Below, piece after piece: positions 2,434 to 42,853 of a stretch of 49,122 nt of DNA. How positions within the stretch are numbered: position 1 is the stretch's first letter; each line of letters opens with the position of its first letter. The translations under genes were made by a program, and so were the position numbers. Below the pieces are notes generated by a model. The model worked only from the letters and a program-made list of their open reading frames with translations, was not told where the DNA came from and searched no databases. Source of the stretch: a virus (Duplodnaviria > Caudoviricetes); IMG/VR virus record IMGVR_UViG_3300006224_000002, positions 1-49,122 of that record; one strand, 5' to 3'.

Positions 2434-2435
2434 TT

Positions 2436-2561
2436 TTACCAACCACGTTTCAGTTCCAGGTAAATCTGGAAGAAAACGAACAGTAAGAAACCGACAAGGA
2501 TCTGATACCCAATCAGTTTTGCTATGAATATTTCCGTTTCCTCGTCTGCTATTTTTGTCAT
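2436..2561 (-). CDS. Small membrane protein (41 aa, not in the ORF track)
   Basis: Translates MTKIADEETEIFIAKLIGYQILVGFLLFVFFQIYLELKRGW, one TM segment; AT-rich TATA-like sequence about 30 nt upstream. Confidence 0.4.
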   Translation of the reverse strand: MTKIADEETEIFIAKLIGYQILVGFLLFVFFQIYLELKRGW

Positions 2562-2683
2562 AGAATATAATTATTGTTTAAGGCATTATTAATATTTTCT
2601 TATCGCATCGTTGGGGTGCAGGGGCGCAAATAAGACTTCGCATGAAAATGCGGAAATACACAAGCCCCCGCCTTAAAGCGCAA

Positions 2684-2779
2684 TACTTGCCCCAAAAAAC
2701 AGTTGTGTAGGCTGCATTCTAGGGGCAAGCATAAACATATATAATATCGAATCATATTAAGTGTTGTGTAGGTTGCATG
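2684..2779. promoter_or_regulatory. Nuclease-leader hairpin cassette, copy A (before tnpB)
   Basis: Stem CTTGCCCC 2686-2693 / GGGGCAAG 2722-2729; A6 at 2694-2699; loop GTTGTGTAGGCTGCAT 2702-2717 repeated as GTTGTGTAGGTTGCAT 2763-2778; GCATA 2729; CATATTA 2753. Confidence 0.8.
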
Positions 2780-3946
2780 AAGAAAGCATACAAATTCAGA
2801 ATATACCCGAACAAGCATCAAGAAGTTAATCTGAACAGGACTCTTGCTACATGCAGACATCTCTACAACGATTCCCTTTCAAAGAGGAGACGGCAAGCAA
2901 AGCTTAACAACCTGTGCAGGGATTTTGGAGTATTCCCCTGGGGAAAGCCTGAATGGGTCTCATATGAAGACCAGGCTAACGACTTAGCATCATCGAAAAC
3001 CCCTGAGCAGAATGAAGTATTCTCCCAGGTCTTGCAGGATGTTCTGAGAAGGCTGGATAAGACCTTCAAGAACTTCTATCGTGGTTTCGGGTATCCAAGA
3101 TTCAAAGGAAGGAACAGGTATGATTCCTTCACCTATCCTCAAAAAGGATTTGGGCTAAAAGATGGAAAGCTAATCCTTTCAAAGATAGGTAATATCCGCA
3201 TATTCCAGCATCGTGAGATAGAAGGAACAATCAAGACATGCACGATCAAGAAGGATATTGATCAGTGGTATGTCGTATTCACAGTAGAAATCGAAAAACC
3301 TATAATCCCTGTTGAGATCATGACCAGAACAGGAATCGATGTTGGTCTGAAGTCGCTAATCACTCTTAGCAATGGAAAGCAGATAGAACCTCCTAGATTT
3401 CTGAGAGCGTCAGAGCAAAAACTTGTCTGGGAACAGAGAAAGTTAAGCAGGAAAAAGAAAGGCTCTGCTAATAGAAATAGGCAGAGATTCAAGGTAGCGA
3501 AAGTTCACAGGAAAGTCAAGAATCAGAGAAAGGACTTTGCTCATAAAACAAGCAGAGAACTTGTTAATAATTACGACTTGATAGCATTTGAGAACTTGAA
3601 CATTAGGGGTATGGTTCAGAACCATCGCCTTGCTAAATCAATCTCGGATGCTGGATGGTATCAGCTACAAACATTCACAGCATACAAAGCGGAAGATGCT
3701 GGCAAGCAGTGTAAGTTTGTAGTTTCTAACGGAACATCGCAAGAATGCAGTGTCTGCGGAAACAAGGAAATACTGACGTTAGCAGATAGGGTATTCCGAT
3801 GCTCCCGATGCGGACACATCGAAGATAGAGATGTTAATGCATCAAAAAATATCAAGAACAGAGCAGTAGGGACGGACTGTCCCGAATTAACGCCTGTGGA
3901 GAGTATGCACAAGCAACTCGTGGAAGCAGGAAGCCCCGTTCTTTAG
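2777..3946 (+). CDS. tnpB: TnpB RNA-guided endonuclease (IS200/IS605 family OrfB)
   Basis: N-terminal KAYKFRIYP, RuvC-I GIDVGLK, RuvC-II AFENL, zinc finger CSVC...CSRC, RuvC-III DRDVNAS; all three catalytic acidic residues present. Confidence 0.95.
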   Translation: MKKAYKFRIYPNKHQEVNLNRTLATCRHLYNDSLSKRRRQAKLNNLCRDFGVFPWGKPEWVSYEDQANDLASSKTPEQNEVFSQVLQDVLRRLDKTFKNFYRGFGYPRFKGRNRYDSFTYPQKGFGLKDGKLILSKIGNIRIFQHREIEGTIKTCTIKKDIDQWYVVFTVEIEKPIIPVEIMTRTGIDVGLKSLITLSNGKQIEPPRFLRASEQKLVWEQRKLSRKKKGSANRNRQRFKVAKVHRKVKNQRKDFAHKTSRELVNNYDLIAFENLNIRGMVQNHRLAKSISDAGWYQLQTFTAYKAEDAGKQCKFVVSNGTSQECSVCGNKEILTLADRVFRCSRCGHIEDRDVNASKNIKNRAVGTDCPELTPVESMHKQLVEAGSPVL

Positions 3947-3980
3947 AACGGGAGGATGTCACTTCATTTTCTTCAAGAAT
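3860..3980 (+). ncRNA. Putative TnpB omega/reRNA 3' portion with right-end hairpin and guide (5' limit uncertain)
   Basis: GAAGCCCCGTTCTTTAGAACGGGAGGATGTCAC has the stem CCCGTTC/GAACGGG with a TTTA loop and ends in TCAC at 3959-3962, typical of IS605-type right ends. Predicted guide begins TTCATTTTCTTCAAGA at 3963. Confidence 0.7.
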
Positions 3981-5074
3981 TCTAATCCCAGCCCCATGAT
4001 CTCAATCCATGCCTGTTTTTCATTCTTATGGTGGTCAATAGTTATCCCGTATGGCGACAACAGTGCGCCAGTCAAGTCAATCCCATGCACCTGGTTGTAA
4101 ACCGCTGGCATGTCGCTGTCCTGCTGCCATCCCGCTTGTTTGCAATGCTGGGAATAACTGAGGATCTGTGAAAGTTCGGTATTTCTTCCCCTGCGCGATG
4201 TGTAGAGCTGGACTTCGTTCCATCGTTCGATCCCAGCAGCCTTCGCGATCTGCTTGACGGCTTTCCTTGCAGTTTCGTATTTGATATGCTGACCTCTTCT
4301 ACCTCCGCGGATGTCTACCCAGACATGATCGTCTTGTACTTTTGTACAGTTCTTGGATTCCACGGAATCCATACTTTGTACATATGTATAATTCCTCATC
4401 TTTAGCCATGCCTTCAGCCAAGGCACCGTAAAGAATAGTGACACTACCCGCGCCCCCGTCTTGCTTTCGGGCGACAGGGTCAGGTATGCAATATCGAGGC
4501 TCACACTAACAGGAGTTCCGTTGCCGTTTGCCATCTTCGCGGGGATTGTCTCGAATCTGATATCTTCGCGTTTCAGCATGAAAAACTCGTGCGGCCTGCA
4601 GTTGGATTCATACAGGCACGCGAGCATGGCTTTATCTCGGAAATGCGGCCAGTTGCATTGACATATCTTCAGGATATCGTGAACTGTAAGGAAAAAGCGC
4701 GGGAGGATAGCTCTGGCAGATGTGGTTTTTATCTGCGTTGCCAAGGGATTATTGAGATGTTCCAGGACTCGTTTCAGGAATATTTTATAATCCCTTTTGG
4801 CTTCCGAACCGTATCCTGTATTATGCTCGATGATTGATAATGTATGATACAATGCATCTTGCGTTACATCATGAAATGAATGGAGATATCCACGCTCTAT
4901 GATGAGGCGCAGGTAAAGATAATATTTCTCTGCACGACTGTACTTTATCTTTGTCGCAAGAAGCTTGTCTATCAATGCAGTAACGGCAGACTTATCTTGT
5001 TCAGATATTGCTTTAGAAGAAAGGAACTTTTCTTTTGCCCGATCGTAATGATTTGGAATCCACGTTTTTATCAC
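3959..5074 (-). CDS. int: Tyrosine recombinase / integrase
   Basis: RDKAMLACLYESNCRPHE (R), SKTGAR (K), LYTSRRGR (H-x-x-R variant), AGW...SDMPAVY (W, catalytic Y); archaeal-type integrase; GTG start. Confidence 0.9.
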   Translation of the reverse strand: MIKTWIPNHYDRAKEKFLSSKAISEQDKSAVTALIDKLLATKIKYSRAEKYYLYLRLIIERGYLHSFHDVTQDALYHTLSIIEHNTGYGSEAKRDYKIFLKRVLEHLNNPLATQIKTTSARAILPRFFLTVHDILKICQCNWPHFRDKAMLACLYESNCRPHEFFMLKREDIRFETIPAKMANGNGTPVSVSLDIAYLTLSPESKTGARVVSLFFTVPWLKAWLKMRNYTYVQSMDSVESKNCTKVQDDHVWVDIRGGRRGQHIKYETARKAVKQIAKAAGIERWNEVQLYTSRRGRNTELSQILSYSQHCKQAGWQQDSDMPAVYNQVHGIDLTGALLSPYGITIDHHKNEKQAWIEIMGLGLEFLKKMK

Positions 5075-11219: not shown

Positions 11220-11225
11220 TCAAAA

Positions 11226-11331
11226 TACCAGTGGGTAAAAAAGCATCTTGTTCAAGAGGTGCAAGTTATCCCACTGGCATAGGTTTTATATGTCTTGCGG
11301 GATATTATACTTTCTGTTCAAGAGGTGAATG
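11226..11331. promoter_or_regulatory. Nuclease-leader hairpin cassette, copy D
   Basis: Stem CCAGTGGG 11228-11235 / CCCACTGG 11270-11277; A6 at 11237-11242; TGTTCAAGAGGTG at 11249-11261 and 11315-11327; GCATA 11277; GATATTA 11301. Confidence 0.8.
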
Positions 11332-11757
11332 ATGCAGATCTCAGGTCCAAAACCAAATAATTATTTTCATAACAATCCTAAAACAAGAGATTTCATTATA
11401 GCATCAACCAATAAAATTATACGTGGTAAGAAAAGAGCGTTTCCTACAAACAGATCGTGTGAGATTTGCCATTATAAACCTTTAAAGAAACTTGATTACC
11501 ATCACTGGGACGATTCTAAACCAATCAGAGGTCTGTGGGTTTGCGGAGTTTGTCATAAACAAATACATAAATTTGAAAATGGCGAACCTATTAAACAAGG
11601 CAGATTTTCTTGGGAAGCGTGTCTCGATAGATATCTCAAATTGAAAAAGGAAATTGATGCAGGTAAAAATCTCTTGACTAAATCTCGCAGGCAGTTGTTA
11701 TCTCTGCATCAAAAGATTATGGCCAATGCCATTTTTGGGTTGGATGTGGTATTGTGA
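11329..11757 (+). CDS. HNH-like (His-Me finger) endonuclease
   Basis: CEICH...LDYHHWDD...LWVCGVCHKQIH. Confidence 0.65.
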   Translation: MMQISGPKPNNYFHNNPKTRDFIIASTNKIIRGKKRAFPTNRSCEICHYKPLKKLDYHHWDDSKPIRGLWVCGVCHKQIHKFENGEPIKQGRFSWEACLDRYLKLKKEIDAGKNLLTKSRRQLLSLHQKIMANAIFGLDVVL

Positions 11758-11765
11758 TGTTATTT

Positions 11766-12105
11766 TGTTTACATTTATGTTTACAAAAAGTAAACAACTT
11801 TGTTTACACTTATAAAGAAAAAGTGTTTACATTTCTGTTTACATGTAAACACTTTTTACCGACGGGTATCTATCAGATTATGAAAAACAGGGTTTTTATA
11901 ACCGAGGGTAATAAACAGGTGAAGAAACTTGGAATAGTAATTTTATAATAATCGATTACTAATTGTATATATTATAGGAGTTGTATGTTATTATTTGATG
12001 GTGTTATAATAAAAACGGTGAATAAAAACGGTGGGCGACCTGTTTACAAAGGCAGTGTTTACAGTAAACAAATTTGTTTACATTTAGTAAACGGTGGTGT
12101 TTACA
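11766..12105. repeat. Two clusters of TGTTTAC(A) repeats around an AT-rich spacer; candidate replication origin
   Basis: Forward copies at 11766, 11778, 11801, 11824, 11836, 12041, 12056, 12075, 12098; reverse copies at 11790, 11844, 12064, 12087; tandem AATAAAAACGGTG x2 at 12008-12033. Confidence 0.75.
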
Positions 12106-13140: not shown

Positions 13141-13343
13141 CCCAGGACAAACTTCTCGAAATCATCCGGGAACATCCCGGCATTGTCCAGAGCGAGATAA
13201 AAAAGTATCCTGGGATCAAGCCGTATGATGTGTCTGAGATGCTCGGACAACTGAGGCTGAAAGGACTCATTTACAGAGTACCGACAAAGAATCGGAAATC
13301 ATGGTTATTGTATCCAGTTCAAGAAAAGGAGATGAAACCATAG
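13137..13343 (+). CDS. Winged helix-turn-helix protein
   Basis: LLEIIREHPGIVQSEI...LRLKGLIYR...WLLYP; paralogue of 10058. Confidence 0.7.
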   Translation: MTQDKLLEIIREHPGIVQSEIKKYPGIKPYDVSEMLGQLRLKGLIYRVPTKNRKSWLLYPVQEKEMKP

Positions 13344-13521
13344 AGAAATGCCAGGATAACAGCCCGCTCATGGGCGCGTGTTGCACGAACAGATGCCCGC
13401 ATCACAGGACATGCAATATCAAGAGAACTCCGCTGCTTATCAACTGCACGGTGATCAGCAGGAAGAACGCGAATGTGTTTAGTGATGAGTACATCAACGA
13501 CCTTGTGAACAGGTACGTGAT

Positions 13522-18840: not shown

Positions 18841-19647
18841 ATGCCCACCGAACTTGAACAATTCATCGAAAAGCTGAACAGGATCATCAAAGACCTGAAG
18901 CGCAGGCAGAGTGATGCACTTGCCAGGCACATCGCAACATCGTTCACCCTCGGATATCAGAAAGGTAAGATCGTGCCCGGTGGATATCCGAACGAGAGGA
19001 GCCTGCAGCGAAGAGCGATAGAAGAACTCACGACAACTAACCTGGGATACCTGGACGAGTTTGATTCTGCGCTTGGGGACAAGTTGAAAGGACACCTACA
19101 GGAAGTCATAAAGGTCGGTGGCGGGTATGAAGATGTTCGAAGAAATCTTGTACCTTACGTTGAAGAAGTCTTCGGGGAAAACGGGCAAGTAACGATTGAC
19201 CGCACAGGCCAGACCAGGGAGATCATCACTGTAGACCAGGACGGAAACCTACACAGAGAACAGAAGACCATCCAGGAGCCTTACACGACCTCGGTAAAGG
19301 CTTATAGCGAAATGTTAAGCAGGACGGTAGCCCATTCCTCCTACGCAAAAGGCCGTGCTACGGGTTATAAGGCATCAGGGATAGAAAAACTTCGCGTAGT
19401 GGTAATGCAGGACGAGAGGGCCAGGGCTTCCCACCTCGCCGTTCACGGGAAAATAATTGAGATCGGGAGTCCTGAAGAACAGATGATTTTAGACCTGCAT
19501 TCTGAACCAAACTGCAGGTGCAGAACGATTCCATATTTGGATAATAATCTGGATACCCCGAACTCAGTTTATGAAAAGCAGAAAGATAAATTTGATTTAA
19601 AGTTCGAGAATGGAGAATGGATGTTTAACAAGTTACCTGCCCTTTAA
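18841..19647 (+). CDS. Head morphogenesis protein (MuF / SPP1 gp7-like)
   Basis: SEMLSRT...DERARASHLAVHG...EPNCRC. Confidence 0.82.
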   Translation: MPTELEQFIEKLNRIIKDLKRRQSDALARHIATSFTLGYQKGKIVPGGYPNERSLQRRAIEELTTTNLGYLDEFDSALGDKLKGHLQEVIKVGGGYEDVRRNLVPYVEEVFGENGQVTIDRTGQTREIITVDQDGNLHREQKTIQEPYTTSVKAYSEMLSRTVAHSSYAKGRATGYKASGIEKLRVVVMQDERARASHLAVHGKIIEIGSPEEQMILDLHSEPNCRCRTIPYLDNNLDTPNSVYEKQKDKFDLKFENGEWMFNKLPAL

Positions 19648-19736
19648 AAAACGATTGCTAAGGTCGGATTTCAAGGGCAGGCATAATTATATATGTTTAC
19701 AAAGCATATTAGTGTTTGCTAAGGTCGGCAAACATG
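19634..19736. promoter_or_regulatory. Nuclease-leader hairpin cassette, copy B
   Basis: Stem CCTGCCCTT 19636-19644 / AAGGGCAGG 19673-19681; A6 at 19646-19651; TTGCTAAGGTCGG at 19655-19667 and 19716-19728; GCATA 19681; CATATTA 19705. Confidence 0.8.
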
Positions 19737-20564
19737 AAGTATAATCAAACGGATTCTAAGGGAAGATTCGTTCCCGGGATTAAAATAACCAAAATATGCT
19801 TGAATTGCGGAAAGAAATTTATAGTTAATACAAGCGGTGTTTATCGAAAATATTGCTCGCATGTTTGTTCAATAAAGCATAAAATAAAAACAGGCCATTG
19901 TTTAAAACGAGCACAAAAACCATGCATTCAGTGTGGTAAACCTATAATAGAACGTCCATCGAAGGTAAAACGTCGAAAATTCTGTTCTTACAAATGCAGT
20001 GTGGAAGCAAGAAAAAATAGGATAAAGCGAGAATGCCCCACATGCAAAAGCGAATTTATTACAAAACCAAGCCAAATTATTAATGGAAAAGGAATTTATT
20101 GTTCGCATCGTTGTTGGTGTAAATCTCGAAACGAGGTAGCAATGGTAACTATACATTGCGAAAATTGCGGCAAAGAGTTTAAGATGTTGCGTTCTAACGC
20201 ATTGCATACAGCAACAGACAATTCACAGCGAGTATTGTTTTGTTCACGAGCATGTTATTATGATTCTGAAAATTTCAAAGACAAAATGGAACGTTTGAAA
20301 CCTCCAAAAGGTAAGTTAAATAAAAACTGGTGCGGAGGTGCAAAAATATCACGAAGTCGGTTTCGTCATCGAAGAGCAAACAAAGGATTTATAATTATCT
20401 CTGATAAAGTTCCATATGACGAACCAATTGAATATCATCATCCTCATCCAAATCTTCCTTTTGTTGTTCCATGTCCAGCAAGGATTCATAAGATGTTTGT
20501 TGGTGCAAATAAAAACCATTTTAGAAATGTAAATGCAATGTTAGGTTTAAAGTTAAAATTCTAA
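19734..20564 (+). CDS. Putative homing endonuclease: four CxxC...(Y/F)CSxxC zinc repeats plus C-terminal His-rich nuclease-like domain
   Basis: Repeats CLNCG/YCSHVC, CIQCG/FCSYKC, CPTCK/YCSHRC, CENCG/FCSRAC; NKNWCGG; YHHPHP...PCPARIH. Confidence 0.7.
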   Translation: MKYNQTDSKGRFVPGIKITKICLNCGKKFIVNTSGVYRKYCSHVCSIKHKIKTGHCLKRAQKPCIQCGKPIIERPSKVKRRKFCSYKCSVEARKNRIKRECPTCKSEFITKPSQIINGKGIYCSHRCWCKSRNEVAMVTIHCENCGKEFKMLRSNALHTATDNSQRVLFCSRACYYDSENFKDKMERLKPPKGKLNKNWCGGAKISRSRFRHRRANKGFIIISDKVPYDEPIEYHHPHPNLPFVVPCPARIHKMFVGANKNHFRNVNAMLGLKLKF

Positions 20565-33147: not shown

Positions 33148-36139
33148 TAAACTTTTATTTATTTTAATTCTATCGCTATTATTAGTGAGTCCGGCGAATG
33201 CGATTGTGCCAAAAAAAATAGTTGAAGATATATGGAACAATCTATCCGCCATCAATAACAGTATCAATCTATCGGTTCAATATAAAGCGGAAATGTACGG
33301 TACATGGATACAACCAGCCTACATCACGGGCGTAAAAGCAGGAGCGACAGACCATATAGGCAATGGGTTGAATTACTCTCACTCCAGGGGCATGAAATTC
33401 ATGTTGAAGATAAGACCGACTGATTATGCCACCAGCCGTGAAGCATTCAGAACCGACACAGCCGCTCAGGACAGGTATTATTCTGATTTAGCTTGGGTAT
33501 TACAGAGGTATCCGACACTTGATGGGCTTGAACTTGAAGAGCCCCAAATGTATGCGGAAGGAACAGACGGCGGCGTGATAAACAAAGCCTTCTGGAATAG
33601 TGTTTTTGTTGAGTCAAAAGCTATAGTCGTGCAATATCGAGACCTTAGCAGTTTTATCTGGGGGTTCAATTTCATAAGTACGAACACAGATACTAATGTT
33701 ACTAGACAGGGGATTGACTGGGTTTATATCAATAATAATATATTATTCAATGCAGTCTTCATACAAAACGGATTCACTATGTCAAGATATCAGAGCGAGG
33801 TATCAAGGTGGACCCCGAGATTCTCAAACCTAGAGTTGGGTTCTTATACTTATCTCCATTCTCAGACCTTTGCTGCATGTATACAGCAGTTTCCAACCTG
33901 GAATGATCCTTCTTGTTGGAACCAAGTATTCTTTGACCAGGTTGAGTGGGCTCAAACTGCTGGTGTACCGGTGGATGTATTCATTTTAGGCAGGTTATTC
34001 CGCCCTGCTTCAATGTGGCCAAACGAAACCACACCAGGAGCCACAGCAGGAGACAAGCTTTCATATATCTGGAATATCACATCATCTGTCGTTCTTACCC
34101 CAACCTTTTCACCACCATCTGGAACTTATTTGACCCCACAGCAAGTCTACATAACATCGGGAACAGCGAACGCTACGATACGGTATACCACTGACGGAAG
34201 CACACCATCTACGTCTTCATCACTATATTCTAGCCCGATAATGATTTCCACCAACACAACCCTTAAAGCGAAGGCTTGGAAGGCTGGATATATCGACAGC
34301 GGCGTTGGTATAGCAAGTTACGCTATGCCTGCCGAAATGCCAGAAGAAATTGAGGTAAATAACAATCTGAAAAAGAGCGACCCGAATACAGTATTTAATC
34401 AGAATACCGTTAACTTCATTGAAGCAGGGTGTCTGAGCAATTGTTCAACGTATGTCTACCGCTCAATTCTAAGACTCAATATTACAGGATATAGTGTTAA
34501 CAGCTTATATTATCTGAAGCTGTGGTGGTATCATCAGAACATAAACCGCATAAATCCGACCGACATCCAGGTTTTCTATGTCAATAAAAGTTTTCAGACA
34601 AATGGTATGAATTGGTACAATCGATCTATGGGTGTTCTCTGGAGTAATCCTGGTGGAGATTGGTTAGATTCTAATTCTGCCAGCCAGGGTACTGTTCCCA
34701 TCGACTATGTAACGCTGCCCGTTGGAAGTCCCACGGACGCATACATTATATTCAACGTGACCAAGGCAGTTGTTTGGGGTATTAACAATGCGTCTGACAA
34801 TGTGAGTTTCATGATTAAAGCAAGCCCCACCAACGAATCACAGGTTAATAACTATGTGGCTTTCCACGGAGTAAGCTGGACGAACTCGCTACAAACCCCT
34901 GTGTTAGAAAATCAATCAATACCAATATACGCCCCCCCATCAATTACTTCATGGGGCAACAACAAGACAAATAATATTAATCTATCTTTCGATGTGAACC
35001 TAAGTGAAGTTGTTAATTTCAATGTGACAGCGAATCAGAGCGTAAGTTATAGCTGGTATATCGATGATAATCCCACGGGTGGCAACTTCGATAATCTTAC
35101 GACATCTTGGTCAGTTGGAGGTTTCAAGGAGATACATGCCCTAACTAATAACTCAAATGGTTCTTCAGGAATAACGTGGAATGTAAACGTAATCAGTCCA
35201 CTCATACCGTCTATTCCAGACAACCTTAGTCTAACTTCTGGGAAACATTGGGCAAACGCAACATGGACTGCTAACATGACTGGAAATGTAAGTGATAGTT
35301 ATAGAGTCAAGCTATACCTGTACAATCCAGATAATCCAGAAGAGGATGCAGAGTTTTTAGGTGAAACAGCAAATACTTATTATAATTTTACAGACCTGGA
35401 TGCATATAGGTACTGGAAAGGATATGCATTCATCAGAAGCTATAATAACACCTATGCCTATAGCGATTATTCCGGAGCTACTGCAACAGTACGGATACCA
35501 ACCCCAATATATTATGTTGCATCTCAGGCAAATAATTCTTATATTTTTATAGCAAACCCTGATAGAAACTACACAATAAGGACAAGAGCGAACAATTCAA
35601 CTTATGATACTAAATCTGATTGGAATGAAACAACCGTTGAGGTTCCGAACGATGTTGATGTTTACAATACTGGATACCAATTCGTTCTTGTGAATGGTAC
35701 AATGACAAATGCTGAAATAGATGCATTGTGGGGAACAACGTGGATCATTGGATGGAATGTCACCTCACAGAGATGGGAGAATTATAAATCAGGTTGGAAT
35801 ATCAGATCTTCCAGAACAGCGAACAAGGGGGATGCTGTGGGCATCAAGGTCTCTACGAACAAGTCTGTGGCATTGACTTTTAATGCGAGCTATAACTGGA
35901 CATTATATACTGGACAAAACCTTATCGGAATAGAATATACCAAGAACTTATCGCAGATCAATACCAGCATCGGAACTTGCGATGTAGATAAACTGGAATA
36001 TACTAATCTATCCACCCAAACATCTTATCTATTCACTTGTGGAGAATCTGGGAATGCGTCCGTTCTAGTAAATGCTGGGGAAGGGTTCTGGGCGAACAAG
36101 AGTACGGCTGGAACGCTTGATATTGTAAGGGTGTGGTAA
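33137..36139 (+). CDS. Secreted multidomain protein: putative glycoside-hydrolase-like N-terminus, chitobiase C-terminal/Fn3-associated domain, disaggregatase-related repeat
   Basis: Signal peptide; YPTLDGLELEEP; TPTFSPPSGTY...IRYTTDGSTP; WSNPGGDWLDSNSASQGTVP; many sequons. Confidence 0.72.
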   Translation: MKINKLLFILILSLLLVSPANAIVPKKIVEDIWNNLSAINNSINLSVQYKAEMYGTWIQPAYITGVKAGATDHIGNGLNYSHSRGMKFMLKIRPTDYATSREAFRTDTAAQDRYYSDLAWVLQRYPTLDGLELEEPQMYAEGTDGGVINKAFWNSVFVESKAIVVQYRDLSSFIWGFNFISTNTDTNVTRQGIDWVYINNNILFNAVFIQNGFTMSRYQSEVSRWTPRFSNLELGSYTYLHSQTFAACIQQFPTWNDPSCWNQVFFDQVEWAQTAGVPVDVFILGRLFRPASMWPNETTPGATAGDKLSYIWNITSSVVLTPTFSPPSGTYLTPQQVYITSGTANATIRYTTDGSTPSTSSSLYSSPIMISTNTTLKAKAWKAGYIDSGVGIASYAMPAEMPEEIEVNNNLKKSDPNTVFNQNTVNFIEAGCLSNCSTYVYRSILRLNITGYSVNSLYYLKLWWYHQNINRINPTDIQVFYVNKSFQTNGMNWYNRSMGVLWSNPGGDWLDSNSASQGTVPIDYVTLPVGSPTDAYIIFNVTKAVVWGINNASDNVSFMIKASPTNESQVNNYVAFHGVSWTNSLQTPVLENQSIPIYAPPSITSWGNNKTNNINLSFDVNLSEVVNFNVTANQSVSYSWYIDDNPTGGNFDNLTTSWSVGGFKEIHALTNNSNGSSGITWNVNVISPLIPSIPDNLSLTSGKHWANATWTANMTGNVSDSYRVKLYLYNPDNPEEDAEFLGETANTYYNFTDLDAYRYWKGYAFIRSYNNTYAYSDYSGATATVRIPTPIYYVASQANNSYIFIANPDRNYTIRTRANNSTYDTKSDWNETTVEVPNDVDVYNTGYQFVLVNGTMTNAEIDALWGTTWIIGWNVTSQRWENYKSGWNIRSSRTANKGDAVGIKVSTNKSVALTFNASYNWTLYTGQNLIGIEYTKNLSQINTSIGTCDVDKLEYTNLSTQTSYLFTCGESGNASVLVNAGEGFWANKSTAGTLDIVRVW

Positions 36140-36140
36140 T

Positions 36141-37361
36141 ATGCCGGAACTACCATACATTATTTTCGGGACCTTCACAAAAGACGGGGTGGTTCAGAAC
36201 GGCGCGACCATCACCATCGAGAACGTCACGAAGGTTACGAGTGACACAACGACCACGGATGCGAGCGGGAATTATATCTATGACGATATCCAGGCATCCC
36301 CACTCAACACTGAATCCGGGGATACTATCCGAGTCAGTACATCGGATGGTGCGCAGGTGGAGTTCGTTGCGGGAGCCCCGGAAGAACGTGAAGTTAATTT
36401 CGATTATGATATCACTCAGGTAGTTGCTGCAGGCGGTGCGGTTACTGGTGGGGTTGTTCCTGTTTATATTGTACGGCCATCCGAAGCCTCTGGCGGCGCA
36501 GTGGTTGCCGGGACGAGTATATATTATATAATTGCGGCCACCCCCGCGATCTCCGGCGGTGCAGTAGCAGGCGGCACAAGTACGTCTTCCATAGTCGTAG
36601 TCACTCCGGCCATCTCTGGCGGCGCGTTAGCTGGGGGAACAAGCACATCTTATATAATAGCGGTTCCTCCAGCCACCACAGGCGGCGCGGTTTGCGCAGG
36701 AGCCGCGGATAATGTTTACATCATGCGACTCGTGGAAGTCGTAGGATCTGGTGGTGCAGTAGCCGGGGGCTCCGTCTCGTATACTGTGATCTATGATGCG
36801 AACGTAATCGTATGCGTTGCTTCTGGAGGTGCGGTTGCCGGGGGAAGTGCCAGCGATATTAAGCTATTGGCGGTTACGGTTGGGACAGGCGGTGCCGTTT
36901 CCGGCGGATCTGTGTCTTATTCGGTGATCATCGCTGCGCAAGTCATTACTTGTGTGGCAGCAGGGGGTGCAGTCGCGGGTGGAGAGGCTACCAGCTCTAT
37001 TATGCGTCTTGTCGTTATCGATGCTTCAGGAGGCGCAATCGCTGGAGGAGATGCCACTTATTCCGTCGTCGGGGCGAACGTCGTTATTTGTGTGGCTGAC
37101 GGCGGTGCGGTGGTCGCTGGAGATGCGGACTACTCCCTCCGTGAAGTGGTCACTTCGATAGCTTCTGGTGGTGCCGAAGTCGGAGGTTCTGCGGATTGGA
37201 TACAGGTCGTGACGTTCCCAGGATCTGGCGGTGCGGTTGTTGGTGGGAGTGCAGTTCTTGGAAGTGCAATAAGACTTGATATTGCGCTCAGTCATGGAAC
37301 CGCGTTCAACCATGCTTTAAGTCATGGAAAGTCACATTCTATTGCAATGGAGTCACAGTAA
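36141..37361 (+). CDS. Repeat-rich fibre/adhesin-like protein
   Basis: N-terminal Ig-like TTTTDASGNY; 13 GGAV(A/V)GG-type repeats separated by beta-strands. Confidence 0.65.
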   Translation: MPELPYIIFGTFTKDGVVQNGATITIENVTKVTSDTTTTDASGNYIYDDIQASPLNTESGDTIRVSTSDGAQVEFVAGAPEEREVNFDYDITQVVAAGGAVTGGVVPVYIVRPSEASGGAVVAGTSIYYIIAATPAISGGAVAGGTSTSSIVVVTPAISGGALAGGTSTSYIIAVPPATTGGAVCAGAADNVYIMRLVEVVGSGGAVAGGSVSYTVIYDANVIVCVASGGAVAGGSASDIKLLAVTVGTGGAVSGGSVSYSVIIAAQVITCVAAGGAVAGGEATSSIMRLVVIDASGGAIAGGDATYSVVGANVVICVADGGAVVAGDADYSLREVVTSIASGGAEVGGSADWIQVVTFPGSGGAVVGGSAVLGSAIRLDIALSHGTAFNHALSHGKSHSIAMESQ

Positions 37362-38174: not shown

Positions 38175-38389
38175 AGCACTGCGAAGCAGTAGATAGGTGA
38201 CAACCCTTCCACAGTTGACCGCTGTGCCACCCTCGGCATCTTAAATTTATTGTTGTGGGCACTGGTTCGTGCAACACGCACCCTGAAGAGGGCTATCGTC
38301 CTGGCATTTGTTGGGTTCTATGGTTTCAACTCCTTTTCCATTCTAATATTTTTCTTGATTCATTATCACACACAACTGACCTCACATAC

Positions 38390-41880: not shown

Positions 41881-41891
41881 AAAATACTTTT

Positions 41892-41998
41892 TACCCAACC
41901 CATAAAAAAGCATGTCTTAGGTGCTTGATATTTAGGTTGGGCATACTTATTTATGTCATCAATACATATTAAGTGTTGTCTTAGGTGTATTGAGAATG
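41892..41998. promoter_or_regulatory. Nuclease-leader hairpin cassette, copy C
   Basis: Stem CCCAACC 41894-41900 / GGTTGGG 41935-41941; A6 at 41904-41909; TGTCTTAGGTG at 41913-41923 and 41977-41987; GCATA 41941; CATATTA 41965. Confidence 0.8.
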
Positions 41999-42853
41999 AA
42001 TAAAAATAAATATCCCAAAATACCGACATTGTGTTTATGTGGGTGCAACGAAATCGTGTGGGGGGGTAGCAGATTTATCCGAGGGCATAATTCGATTAGT
42101 GATAACCCCTCGAAACGAGATGATATAAAAGAAAAAATATCTTTGGCTTTGCGGGGTAGAAATGTAACGTGGGGTATAAAAATATCTTCATCGAAGAAAG
42201 GGCGCCCCTCAAAGAATAAAGGGAGAAAGACGGGTAAACCATCGTGGAACCGTGGCATTCCGCAAAGCGAAGAAACAAAGAAAAAAGCCTCTCTAAAATT
42301 AAAAGGGCACATCCCTTGGAATAAGGGGAAAAAACTTGGTCATTGTGTAAACAGCGGGCAGTTTCAAAAAGGAAACATTCCTTGGAGTAAAACAACCCAA
42401 TATTCCGAAGAGAGTCGTAAGAAGATGTCCCTATCTCATATTGGTAAATCCGTAAATGTGGGCGAAAAGAATGGAATGTTTGGAAAACCGTCGTATTGGC
42501 GAGGAAAGAAACAGAATCCAGAACATATGAAACGGTTGATAGAAGCAAACAGGGGGCGAACTCCTTGGAATAAAGGAAAAAAGCTTCCAGAATATTCTGG
42601 GTTAAATCATCCGAGATGGAGGGGGGGTAAAAAAGTAGCTAACGCTAGAATGCATCATATACGGAGAATGAGGGGATTTAAATTAATTATAAAAAACAAT
42701 CCGTATAACGAACCGATTGATTATCATCATATTCATCCCAACTTGCCCTATGTCGTGCCGTGTCCAAAAAGGATACACCAGATGTTTCCAGGCTCTGAAA
42801 GAACGCATTTTCAAAACGTGAATGCGATGTTGGGGATTAAACTAGCGGTTTAA
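41996..42853 (+). CDS. Putative homing endonuclease: NUMOD3-type repeats plus C-terminal His-rich nuclease-like domain
   Basis: CLCGC...FIRGHN; SEETKKK, SEESRKKMS, PWNKG, GEKNGMFGK repeats; NHPRWRGG; YHHIHP...PCPKRIH (TTG 41990 is an alternative start). Confidence 0.75.
   Translation: MNKNKYPKIPTLCLCGCNEIVWGGSRFIRGHNSISDNPSKRDDIKEKISLALRGRNVTWGIKISSSKKGRPSKNKGRKTGKPSWNRGIPQSEETKKKASLKLKGHIPWNKGKKLGHCVNSGQFQKGNIPWSKTTQYSEESRKKMSLSHIGKSVNVGEKNGMFGKPSYWRGKKQNPEHMKRLIEANRGRTPWNKGKKLPEYSGLNHPRWRGGKKVANARMHHIRRMRGFKLIIKNNPYNEPIDYHHIHPNLPYVVPCPKRIHQMFPGSERTHFQNVNAMLGIKLAV

What the first reader, a model, noticed from the sequence alone, without database searches (positions are those of the whole stretch)
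2661..3980. Apparently domesticated TnpB: intact nuclease, no TnpA, eroded left end, wired like a homing endonuclease and guided at the integrase 3' end
Seen: RuvC D/E/D and the zinc finger are intact and the right-end hairpin is perfect. No Y1 or serine transposase is recognisable in the genome. Only a half-hairpin CAAGCCCCCGCCTTAAAGCG (2661-2680) remains on the left, followed by the same cassette that precedes the HNH genes. Established: TnpB guides derive from the sequence just beyond the right end. Here that is TTCATTTTCTTCAAGA..., the antisense of the last integrase codons. Inference: an RNA-guided homing or competition nuclease cutting tnpB-free relatives at the end of int.
Basis: partly seen in the sequence, partly recalled or inferred. 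Interest (0 to 1): 0.72.

Follow-up and report, generated by a model that had tools for sequence, protein, structure and literature searches.

The report
Ordinary TnpB transposon in archaeal virus
This is an intact, transposase-less TnpB insertion sequence of a family that is multicopy in Methanoperedens archaea, sitting at the stop codon of a virus's integrase gene; it is likely an ordinary mobile element rather than a domesticated viral weapon, although it shares an unexplained hairpin-promoter cassette with the virus's three HNH nuclease genes.

Summary
The sequence facts mostly hold. tnpB (2777-3946) is intact. The virus has no Y1 or serine transposase. The right-end hairpin is perfect. 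The DNA just past the right end is antisense to the last integrase codons. The same upstream cassette precedes three HNH genes.

The interpretation mostly does not hold. The left end is not eroded. Positions 2661-2680 are a conserved left-end box, not half a hairpin, and a 7-bp hairpin sits at the expected place (2637-2654). The whole unit, 2604-3962, is collinear with full-length copies of an IS200/IS605-family, tnpB-only element. That element is multicopy in Candidatus Methanoperedens genomes, which do encode TnpA. The omega-RNA region keeps a strongly covarying structure. A guide that matches the flank follows from any insertion, so it is not a sign of wiring.

The cassette sits inside the left end of host chromosomal copies too, so it probably came in with the element. 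No empty allele or tnpB-free relative was found, so homing is untested.

The most interesting result is the cassette itself: a covarying stem, an A-run, a copy of the 5' leader, a TATA box, and the leader again. It precedes TnpB, HNH and one Cas1 gene.

The parts
2599..2603 (+). CTTAT, at the position of the family's transposon-adjacent motif (TAM)
   Evidence: Most relatives have TTTAT here, and a few have TTTAG, TTTAA or TTAC. It lies 5-10 nt before the GGG box, and sequence upstream of it is unrelated between copies. That it acts as a TAM is inferred.
2604..2682 (+). Outer left end: GGGTGCAGGGGCGCA box (2614-2628), hairpin TTCGCAT/gaaa/ATGCGGA (2637-2654), and conserved box CAAGCCCCCGCCTTAAAGCG (2661-2680)
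   Evidence: Collinear with the left ends of L007, L016, L034, L230, L013 and the tnpA-bearing L090. Against L034, the hairpin keeps 7 of 8 pairs and has two double (compensatory) changes (my reading).
2683..2776 (+). Hairpin-promoter cassette: ATAC, stem CTTGCCCC (2686-2693), A-run (2694-2699), X (2702-2717), stem GGGGCAAG (2722-2729), TATA-like box (2737-2746), second AT-rich box (2753-2760), X' (2763-2778)
   Evidence: (72.8 bits). That it is a promoter is inferred from sequence.
2777..3946 (+). tnpB, 389 aa, intact
3869..3962 (+). Omega-RNA scaffold core and right end: helices 3869-3883, 3893-3897 with 3926-3930, 3901-3908 with 3913-3919, and the right-end hairpin 3935-3952. The terminus is ...GGAGGATGTCAC.
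   Evidence: Over 17 copies: 37 pairs, 93.8% of cells paired, 21 pairs with compensatory change, 0 of 500 shuffles as high, slid controls at most 7 pairs. The window row forms every pair of helices 3-5 (my reading). There is a sub-threshold RAGATH-18 match at 3893-3932 (30.5 bits against a 44.9-bit gathering score). Transcription was not shown.
3963..3978 (+). Predicted guide-encoding flank TTCATTTTCTTCAAGA
   Evidence: This is the first unique DNA after the family-wide right-end terminus. A guide length of about 16 nt is recalled from ISDra2 work and was not measured here.
3959..5074 (-). Tyrosine integrase gene, full length. Its stop codon TGA (complement of 3959-3961) and the last base of its last Lys codon lie inside the right end of the element.
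   Evidence: PF00589, 6.4e-06, 26.5 bits against a 27.1-bit cut-off; the C-terminus ends where 13 homologues end.
11225..11757 (+). Cassette (11225-11328) plus a 142-aa HNH-like gene
   Evidence: (phrog_2340 endonuclease, 1.2e-07). Model R1, which was not trained on it, scores it only 15.1 bits.
19631..20564 (+). Cassette (19631-19733) plus a 276-aa HNH gene
   Evidence: (phrog_1271 HNH, 1.3e-15).
41889..42853 (+). Cassette (41889-41995) plus a 285-aa NUMOD3/HNH gene
   Evidence: D6, D18; PF07460, 4.5e-09.

Best explanation
Window 2604-3962 is a complete tnpB-only element of the IS200/IS605 family: left end, promoter cassette, intact tnpB, structured omega-RNA region and right end. It likely moved from a Methanoperedens host into this virus using a host TnpA supplied in trans. 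Its TnpB-omega RNA would cut the empty site (TAM plus the integrase 3' end), as in any such element.

Shown here:
- Gene integrity.
- Collinearity of both ends with many host copies.
- The right-end boundary.
- Covarying omega-RNA helices.
- Absence of TnpA in the virus and its presence in host genomes.
- The insertion leaves the integrase full length, because the right end supplies the stop codon.

Inferred:
- Host identity.
- TAM = (T/C)TTAT.
- Transcription and processing of the omega RNA.
- Cleavage of TAM-flanked copies of 3963-3978.
- Repair by recombination that copies the element in or keeps it. The virus encodes a RecT-like annealing protein.

The guide points at int only because the element landed there. 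The upstream cassette is part of the element family and is not a viral rewiring.
For: 1. TnpB domains and catalytic residues are intact.
2. Of 601 candidate stretches in genome contigs, 500 encode relatives. The best of the 80 loci kept are all Methanoperedens or Methanosarcinales at 58-74% identity, with up to 8 loci in one MAG.
3. Flank alignments of 19-20 copies show homology running from the TAM-like motif to ...TCAC, with unique DNA outside.
4. The closest full host copy, L230 (74% over 386 aa), has TAM TTTAT, the same box as window 2661-2680 and the identical terminus GGAGGATGTCAC.
5. The left end aligns with those of six relatives, including the tnpA-tnpB element L090.
6. The omega-RNA structure covaries.
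7. Y1 TnpA is found in 5 of 5 host genomes. L086 and L090 carry tnpA behind the same left-end box, and L090 ends in GGTAGTTCAC.
8. Host copies range from intact to decayed and internally deleted, as expected of a live IS family.
9. Contigs of the probable source sample hold another related right end with a compensated hairpin and a different flank.
10. Other viral copies sit in unrelated contexts.
11. TnpB genes shared between Methanoperedens and its viruses are already reported (10.1101/2023.08.02.551345, passages seen).
Against: - No copy closer than 74% (full length) or 79% (over 78 aa) was found, so a recent transfer from a sampled host is not shown.
- The window has CTTAT where most copies have TTTAT.
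- Its left-end hairpin (GAAA loop, 7 bp with one G-T) is shorter than those of most relatives and unlike its own right-end hairpin. Mobilisation by TnpA may therefore be impaired.
- No empty site, excision joint or tnpB-free relative was found, so neither mobility nor homing is demonstrated.
- No expression data exist.
- The cassette's second AT-rich box (CATATTAAGT) is shared with the virus's HNH cassettes and with viral locus L002, but not with host copies. This hints at a lineage that circulates among viruses.
Confidence: 0.8

Rival explanations
1. One reading: an immobilised, virus-domesticated TnpB that serves the virus as an RNA-guided homing or competition nuclease against tnpB-free relatives, expressed like the virus's homing endonucleases.
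For: - There is no TnpA in the virus.
- The nuclease and omega RNA are intact.
- The same cassette precedes three HNH genes.
- The virus-type box CATATTAAGT is shared with the 41-kb HNH cassette as a 15-nt exact match and nearly so with viral locus L002.
- The left-end hairpin and TAM deviate from the family consensus.
- The virus encodes a RecT-like protein that could serve recombinational repair.
Against: - The left end is full length and collinear with mobile host copies.
- The cassette lies within host chromosomal left ends: model R1 gives 96 matches in 20 of 53 genomes.
- A flank-derived guide is generic to any insertion.
- There is no synteny with the other three viral copies.
- No relatives of this virus were available: the nearest integrase homologue is 55-57% identical. 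Conservation of position is therefore untested.
Confidence: 0.12
2. An inert passenger: a recently landed copy whose TnpB or omega RNA is not expressed or not active in this virus, and which will decay like many host copies.
For: - Many host copies are pseudogenes or deletion derivatives.
- The insertion is neutral for the integrase.
- There is no evidence of expression.
Against: - The ORF is intact, with all invariant residues.
- Every omega-RNA helix is kept, with compensatory changes in the window copy.
- The cassette is intact, with X and X' differing at 1 of 16 positions.
Confidence: 0.08

Closest known systems
IS200/IS605-family tnpB-only (IS1341-group) elements; ISDra2 TnpB as the solved reference (PDB 8bf8, 8exa, 8h1j)
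   Same: - Domain order and E = 2.6e-50 to the solved protein.
- The omega RNA overlaps the 3' end of the gene and the right end.
- Subterminal hairpins are present and the guide comes from the flank.
- A conserved motif lies 5' of the left end.
- The elements are mostly non-autonomous (PMC10691335, abstract and introduction seen).
   Different: - Archaeal (Methanoperedens) lineage.
- TAM-like motif TTTAT/CTTAT rather than the TTGAT recalled for ISDra2.
- The left end carries an extra hairpin-promoter cassette.
- The copy sits in a virus genome.
TnpB genes shared by Methanoperedens and its extrachromosomal elements, viruses included (bioRxiv 10.1101/2023.08.02.551345; passages seen)
   Same: The same host clade and the same observation: TnpBs of viruses cluster with host TnpBs.
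   Different: In the passages I read, that paper gives a phylogeny and a CRISPR-adjacent case. It does not give ends, omega RNA, TAM or the cassette. Its supplements were not seen.
TnpB as a programmable homing endonuclease that cuts vacant sites (10.1101/2023.03.14.532601; 10.1101/2023.11.20.567912; abstracts seen)
   Same: The predicted action here is cleavage of the TAM-plus-flank joint followed by recombinational repair.
   Different: Those studies used bacteria with TnpA-driven excision. Here the setting would be a virus population or a provirus, and nothing was tested.
PeSL promoter/stem-loop cassettes of T4-type phages (PMC2839356, PMC4122927; search listing and abstract starts seen)
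   Same: A short conserved stem-loop plus promoter placed in front of accessory genes in a virus genome.
   Different: - PeSLs are described as promoter-terminator motifs that mediate shuffling; I recall that they flank the genes.
- Here there is one cassette per gene, at the 5' side only.
- There is no T-run on the sense strand.
- The loop holds a copy of the gene's own leader.
- The same module lies inside a transposon end in host chromosomes.
Antisense control of transposase translation (IS10 RNA-OUT, recalled; IS200 5'UTR-derived RNAs, PMC5435999, listing seen)
   Same: If the cassette makes a minus-strand RNA from X, that RNA would pair with the leader and start codon of the nuclease mRNA.
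   Different: In IS10 the antisense RNA overlaps its target in cis. Here it would be read from a separate upstream copy of the leader. No transcript has been seen.

Membership tests
IS200/IS605 family, tnpB-only (IS1341-group) OMEGA element | TnpB protein with HTH, RuvC-like OrfB_IS605 and zinc-ribbon TNB domains | tested here: met
   all three domains score over their curated cut-offs; 2.6e-50 to solved TnpB.
IS200/IS605 family, tnpB-only (IS1341-group) OMEGA element | RuvC D/E/D triad and CxxC...CxxC present | tested here: met
   D188 (GIDVG), E272 (FENL), D352 (DRD) and C324/327/342/345 are invariant in alignment A2 and aligned to the same motifs of a solved homologue. That these are the catalytic positions is recalled knowledge.
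IS200/IS605 family, tnpB-only (IS1341-group) OMEGA element | Structured omega RNA overlapping the gene's 3' end and ending at the right end | tested here: met
   Covariation over 17 copies. The RNA itself was not observed.
IS200/IS605 family, tnpB-only (IS1341-group) OMEGA element | Subterminal hairpins at both ends and no terminal inverted repeats | tested here: met
   Left-end hairpin 2637-2654 and right-end hairpin 3935-3952. The two differ in sequence, so whether TnpA recognises them is open.
IS200/IS605 family, tnpB-only (IS1341-group) OMEGA element | Conserved target/TAM motif abutting the left end, and no target-site duplication | tested here: inconclusive
   TTTAT is found in most copies and CTTAT in the window. 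The flanks CTTAT and TTCAT are not a duplication. The exact left boundary was not fixed by an empty site.
IS200/IS605 family, tnpB-only (IS1341-group) OMEGA element | Copies with the same ends at different loci | tested here: met
IS200/IS605 family, tnpB-only (IS1341-group) OMEGA element | Mobilisation by a Y1 TnpA (in cis or in trans) | not testable with these tools
   None in the virus. Present in 5 of 5 host genomes, in L086 and L090 behind the same left-end box. No excision joint appears in the contigs of one run.
Exapted / domesticated TnpB (immobilised, recruited for a host or viral function) | Loss of transposon ends and of a flank-derived guide | tested here: not met
   Both ends are present and collinear with the family, and the flank starts at the family's right-end terminus.
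Exapted / domesticated TnpB (immobilised, recruited for a host or viral function) | Conserved gene neighbourhood across relatives | tested here: not met
   The three other viral copies and all host copies have unrelated flanks. Close relatives of this virus were not available.
PeSL-type mobile regulatory cassette | Stem-loop terminator plus promoter that brackets the accessory genes | tested here: not met
   The cassette is found only 5' of each of the four genes. R1 gives no other strong hit in the window. There is no sense-strand T-run after the stem.

The most novel reading that the evidence does not exclude
The cassette is a portable control module for DNA-cutting selfish genes of the Methanoperedens mobilome. 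It precedes two TnpB families, viral HNH endonucleases and one Cas1.

Proposed mechanism: a single, roughly symmetrical TATA box fires both ways. Rightward it makes the nuclease mRNA, whose whole leader is X'. Leftward it makes a roughly 20-nt RNA that is the complement of X and stops at the T-run. This small RNA would pair with the leader and start codon and throttle translation in a way specific to each lineage.

A virus-borne copy of the element would in addition act as an RNA-guided homing nuclease at the end of int.
Probability: 0.25. Interest if true: 0.65.

Novelty: new member of a known kind. Interest (0 to 1): 0.35.

Why it matters
As a TnpB element it adds little. It is one more fully delimited archaeal OMEGA unit, with a candidate TAM (TTTAT), a scaffold and a guide that could be tested for genome editing. 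It is also one more example of exchange between Methanoperedens and its viruses.

It does correct a tempting misreading: lack of TnpA and a guide that hits a neighbouring gene are not signs of domestication.

The cassette is the part worth a follow-up. It is a strongly constrained module that keeps a second copy of the gene's leader upstream of the promoter, and it turns up in front of several unrelated nuclease genes. That points to a shared and so far undescribed way of controlling toxic selfish genes in these archaea. Two full-text searches and two listings found nothing matching it.

Tried and rejected
Search for empty or tnpB-free alleles:
- The exact 20-nt flank gave 0 hits in viral contigs.
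- It gave 45 hits in metagenome contigs. Only the window's own record (L111) is homologous; L099 shares 23 nt; tblastx found nothing else.
- The 16-nt guide with up to 1 mismatch was found in 38 of 53 Methanoperedenaceae genomes (65 places listed, against roughly 25 for the reversed control). One recurring one-mismatch variant explains most of the excess. The two exact hits have no homology to the window around the site.

Relatives of the virus through its integrase:
- No pattern match in viral contigs.
- The best homologue is 55-57% identical, too far for a guide match.

Sequencing runs:
- One DNA run, kept as contigs and probably the source sample. It showed no joint across the element.
- No RNA holder was listed.

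Relatives of the HNH genes:
- None in 53 host genomes with P0024.
- Only distant NUMOD3 repeats in viral contigs.
- None for P0023.

Tests of the cassette:
- Direction of X-to-X' differences, as a test of antisense pairing. In one search, 12 of 14 transition differences run in the G-U-tolerant direction (9 C-to-T, 3 A-to-G, 2 T-to-C). Nine of them are at one position in related cassettes, so I judged the test inconclusive.
- Model R1 scored the held-out 11-kb cassette at only 15.1 bits. Its membership rests on the stem-plus-repeat scanner and on reading.
- I rejected a sense-strand terminator reading because there is no T-run after the stem.
- I considered a tandem-promoter reading, with an upstream TAATAC acting as a weak TATA. 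Its spacing fits less well.

Rfam gave only a sub-threshold RAGATH-18 match.

Earlier-findings look-ups by place and by cassette sequence were empty.
Full report
**Setting.** The window is a whole virus record of 49,122 bp. It has a 40-bp terminal repeat and is rated 100% complete. It encodes a terminase large subunit, a major head protein, a Mu-F-like head protein, a minor tail protein and a RecT-like annealing protein, so it is a head-tail virus. I infer that the host is Candidatus Methanoperedens. The nearest relatives of its TnpB are all from that clade, and one integrase homologue carries that name.

**The observation.**
- ORF 2777-3946 is a 389-aa TnpB. It has the HTH, OrfB_IS605 and zinc-ribbon TNB domains and matches solved TnpB chains at 2.6e-50.
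- D188, E272, D352 and the four zinc-finger cysteines are invariant among four relatives.
- The integrase gene (3959-5074, minus strand) converges on tnpB.
- Neither Y1_Tnp nor Resolvase profiles match anywhere in the record, while the controls ring.
- The right-end hairpin CCCGTTC/ttta/GAACGGG (3935-3952) spans the tnpB stop codon.
- These parts of the finding are correct.

**Delimiting the element.**
- Three viral loci (66-70% identity) and many Methanoperedens loci (58-74%) carry relatives.
- Aligning the flanks of 19-20 copies shows that every copy ends in ...TCAC after a hairpin with a covarying stem. Most end ...GTAGTTCAC, two end ...AATTCAC, and the window ends ...GGATGTCAC. Unique DNA follows.
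- On the left, homology begins at a short motif 5-10 nt before a GGG-rich box. The motif is TTTAT in most copies, TTTAG, TTTAA or TTAC in a few, and CTTAT (2599-2603) in the window. By analogy with the family I take this motif as the TAM and 2604 as the first base of the element. No empty site fixes this boundary.

**The left end is not eroded.**
- Positions 2661-2680, read as a half-hairpin, align with a conserved box that lies downstream of the left-end hairpin in full-length copies. These include L230, an intact host copy with 74% identity, TAM TTTAT and the identical terminus GGAGGATGTCAC. They also include L090, an autonomous element with tnpA.
- The hairpin position itself (2637-2654) holds TTCGCAT/gaaa/ATGCGGA.
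- Compared with the homologous hairpin of L034, seven of eight pairs are kept, with two double changes (my reading).
- The hairpin is shorter than in most relatives and unlike the window's own right-end hairpin. Together with the C in CTTAT, this leaves open whether TnpA can still move this copy.

**Omega RNA.**
- The last ~95 nt before the right end fold into conserved helices.
- Over 17 copies there are 37 predicted pairs. Of these, 21 show compensatory changes and 93.8% of cells are paired. None of 500 column shuffles reaches any of the measures, and slid controls give at most 7 compensated pairs.
- The window row forms every pair of helices 3-5 and keeps the terminal hairpin in a slightly shifted register.
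- Rfam gives only a sub-threshold RAGATH-18 match at 3893-3932. RAGATH-18-derived RNAs are reported with IS607 TnpBs (PMC11061315, abstract seen).

**TnpA and mobility.**
- All five host genomes tested encode Y1 transposases, three to five matches each.
- In L086 and L090, tnpA lies just behind the same left-end box and is followed by a distant tnpB. L090 ends in GGTAGTTCAC.
- Host copies include pseudogenes, frameshifted copies and internally deleted derivatives that keep both ends.
- Contigs of the one run that holds the window, probably its source, contain another related right end with a compensated hairpin and a different flank.
- This is the picture of an ordinary, partly decaying IS family served in trans. 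Most OMEGA elements are non-autonomous (PMC10691335, abstract and introduction seen).

**The integrase and the guide.**
- The integrase is full length. Its C-terminus ends where those of 13 homologues end.
- The right end supplies the last base of its final Lys codon and its TGA stop. Joining 2603 to 3963 would give AAA-TAA, which encodes the same protein. The insertion is therefore neutral for int.
- A guide that reads antisense to the last int codons follows from the insertion site alone.
- The published role of TnpB is to cut the vacant TAM-plus-flank site so that recombination restores or spreads the element (10.1101/2023.03.14.532601 and 10.1101/2023.11.20.567912, abstracts seen). That role would apply here, within a virus population or against a provirus. 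I could not test it. No empty allele, tnpB-free relative or excision joint was found.

**The cassette.** The claim that tnpB shares an upstream cassette with the HNH genes is correct, and this is the most interesting part of the finding.
- Four cassettes exist in the window, all on the plus strand. Each sits directly before a nuclease gene: tnpB, a 142-aa HNH-like gene, a 276-aa HNH gene and a 285-aa NUMOD3/HNH gene.
- The build, in order: (A/T)TAC; a 7-9-bp GC-rich stem arm; a run of 5-7 A; a 13-17-nt segment X; the second stem arm; GCATA; a TATA-like box; a second AT-rich box; a second copy X'; the start codon.
- The same build lies inside the left end of many host tnpB copies, and before a second HNH/NUMOD3 gene in viral locus L002.
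- A covariance model of it finds 96 places in 20 of 53 Methanoperedenaceae genomes.
- Of the 30 loci fetched:
  - 23 precede tnpB-type starts, intact or decayed.
  - One ends at a contig edge.
  - One precedes a Cas1 gene (4.6e-34).
  - One precedes a different TnpB-like gene.
  - One precedes a BadF/BadG-type ATPase.
  - One precedes a 14-codon ORF.
  - Two are weak hits.
- The stem is 95.5% paired in 34 distinct sequences. Six of eight pairs show compensatory changes, and 0 of 500 shuffles reach this. The alignment was fitted to the model, which favours pairing.
- X and X' agree at 12.06 of 13 positions within a cassette, against 9.07 between cassettes. In 29 of 34 cassettes no foreign X' fits X better than its own.
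- The TATA box centre lies a median 23.5 nt from the 3' end of X and 23.5 nt from the 5' end of X'. The A-run ends 3 nt before X, and the ATG follows the start of X' by 14 nt (27 cassettes).
- Variants exist. Locus L008 has stem arm, A-run, X and then ATG, with no promoter. Locus L002 has the X-stem-promoter unit duplicated. A second group of host copies lacks the A-run, X and the second arm.

**What the cassette may do (inferred).**
- The spacing fits a TATA box whose rightward start site falls at the first bases of X', so X' would be the whole leader.
- The same spacing on the other side would start a minus-strand transcript at the edge of X. It would run through the complement of X into a T-run. 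T-runs are the usual archaeal termination signal (recalled).
- That small RNA would be complementary to the leader and to the first two bases of the start codon of the nuclease mRNA. The logic is that of IS10 RNA-OUT, but read from a separate copy of the leader.
- This reading explains the invariant A-run, the co-variation of X with X' and the symmetry. It does not explain the stem.
- The direction of X-to-X' differences leans the right way, but those differences are not independent.
- I put this reading at about one in four. The alternatives are an insulating or processing hairpin plus promoter in the manner of T4 PeSLs (PMC2839356, listing seen), or tandem promoters.
- Because host chromosomal copies carry the cassette, its presence before the window's tnpB argues against viral domestication.
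- One variant of the second AT-rich box (CATATTAAGT) is shared by the window's tnpB and 41-kb HNH cassettes (a 15-nt exact match) and nearly so by viral locus L002, but not by host copies. This hints at exchange among virus-resident cassettes.

**Prior knowledge.**
- TnpB genes shared between Methanoperedens, Borgs, plasmids and viruses have been reported (10.1101/2023.08.02.551345, passages seen).
- Neither those passages nor the other listings in two searches mention the cassette. A further search for archaeal tnpB with antisense RNA, left end and promoter returned nothing that matches it in titles or abstract starts.
- Supplements of the preprints were not available and may hold relevant detail.
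This looks like the same phenomenon.

**Verdict.** This is an ordinary new member of a known kind of element. It is correctly spotted but over-interpreted. A side observation, the cassette, deserves its own follow-up.

Noticed in passing
L235 (host genome G040), cassette then ORF L235:425-1468 (minus strand): The same hairpin/X/TATA/X' cassette (35.4 bits) directly precedes a 347-aa Cas1 gene (PF01867, 4.6e-34). I did not look at whether this is a casposon or a CRISPR adaptation gene. L232 has a similar cassette before a 14-codon ORF with a similar MNN start.
   Followed up: partly
L233:1501-3062 (host genome G036): The cassette precedes a different, longer TnpB-like protein (over 486 aa; TNB domain at 1.3e-07). 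The module is therefore not tied to one tnpB family.
   Followed up: partly
window 16346, 20610, 22751, 22773, 23023, 23625, 26913, 39911, 42851: Nine copies of (T)AACTTTTCTTTATAT(T/C)C, mostly just upstream of plus-strand genes. These look like the virus's own BRE/TATA promoters and are unlike the nuclease cassette. The copy at 42851 starts right after the stop of the 41-kb HNH gene.
   Followed up: no
window 11763-11850: A cluster of TGTTTACAT repeats spaced 12, 58 and 70 nt apart, just after the 142-aa HNH gene. They look like iterons and may mark a replication origin.
   Followed up: no
window 2434-2560, minus strand: A 42-codon ORF (MTKIADEETEIFIAKLIGYQILVGFLLFVFFQIYLELKRGW by my reading) with a hydrophobic core lies just left of the element. 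AT-rich promoter-like DNA lies between it and the TAM. The element thus sits between the int stop codon and this gene's upstream region.
   Followed up: no
window 13323-13404 and 38251-38338: A long inverted repeat: 59 nt at 78% complementarity plus 22 nt at 95%, with arms 24.8 kb apart. Both arms lie near starts of minus-strand ORFs.
   Followed up: no
window 36423-37250: Degenerate 63-nt periodic repeats rich in GGNGGNGC within ORFs 36133-37361, i.e. a Gly/Ala-rich repeat protein next to the 1000-aa and 1785-aa structural genes.
   Followed up: no
L034:2790-3492 and L228: Internally deleted derivatives of the element. They keep the left end, the cassette, the first codons, the 3' part with the omega-RNA region, and the right end. 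They would be guide-RNA carriers without a nuclease.
   Followed up: partly
L002:3844-4003: The 60-nt unit (X, second stem arm, promoter) is tandemly duplicated in front of this viral tnpB. This suggests unequal exchange between X and X'.
   Followed up: partly
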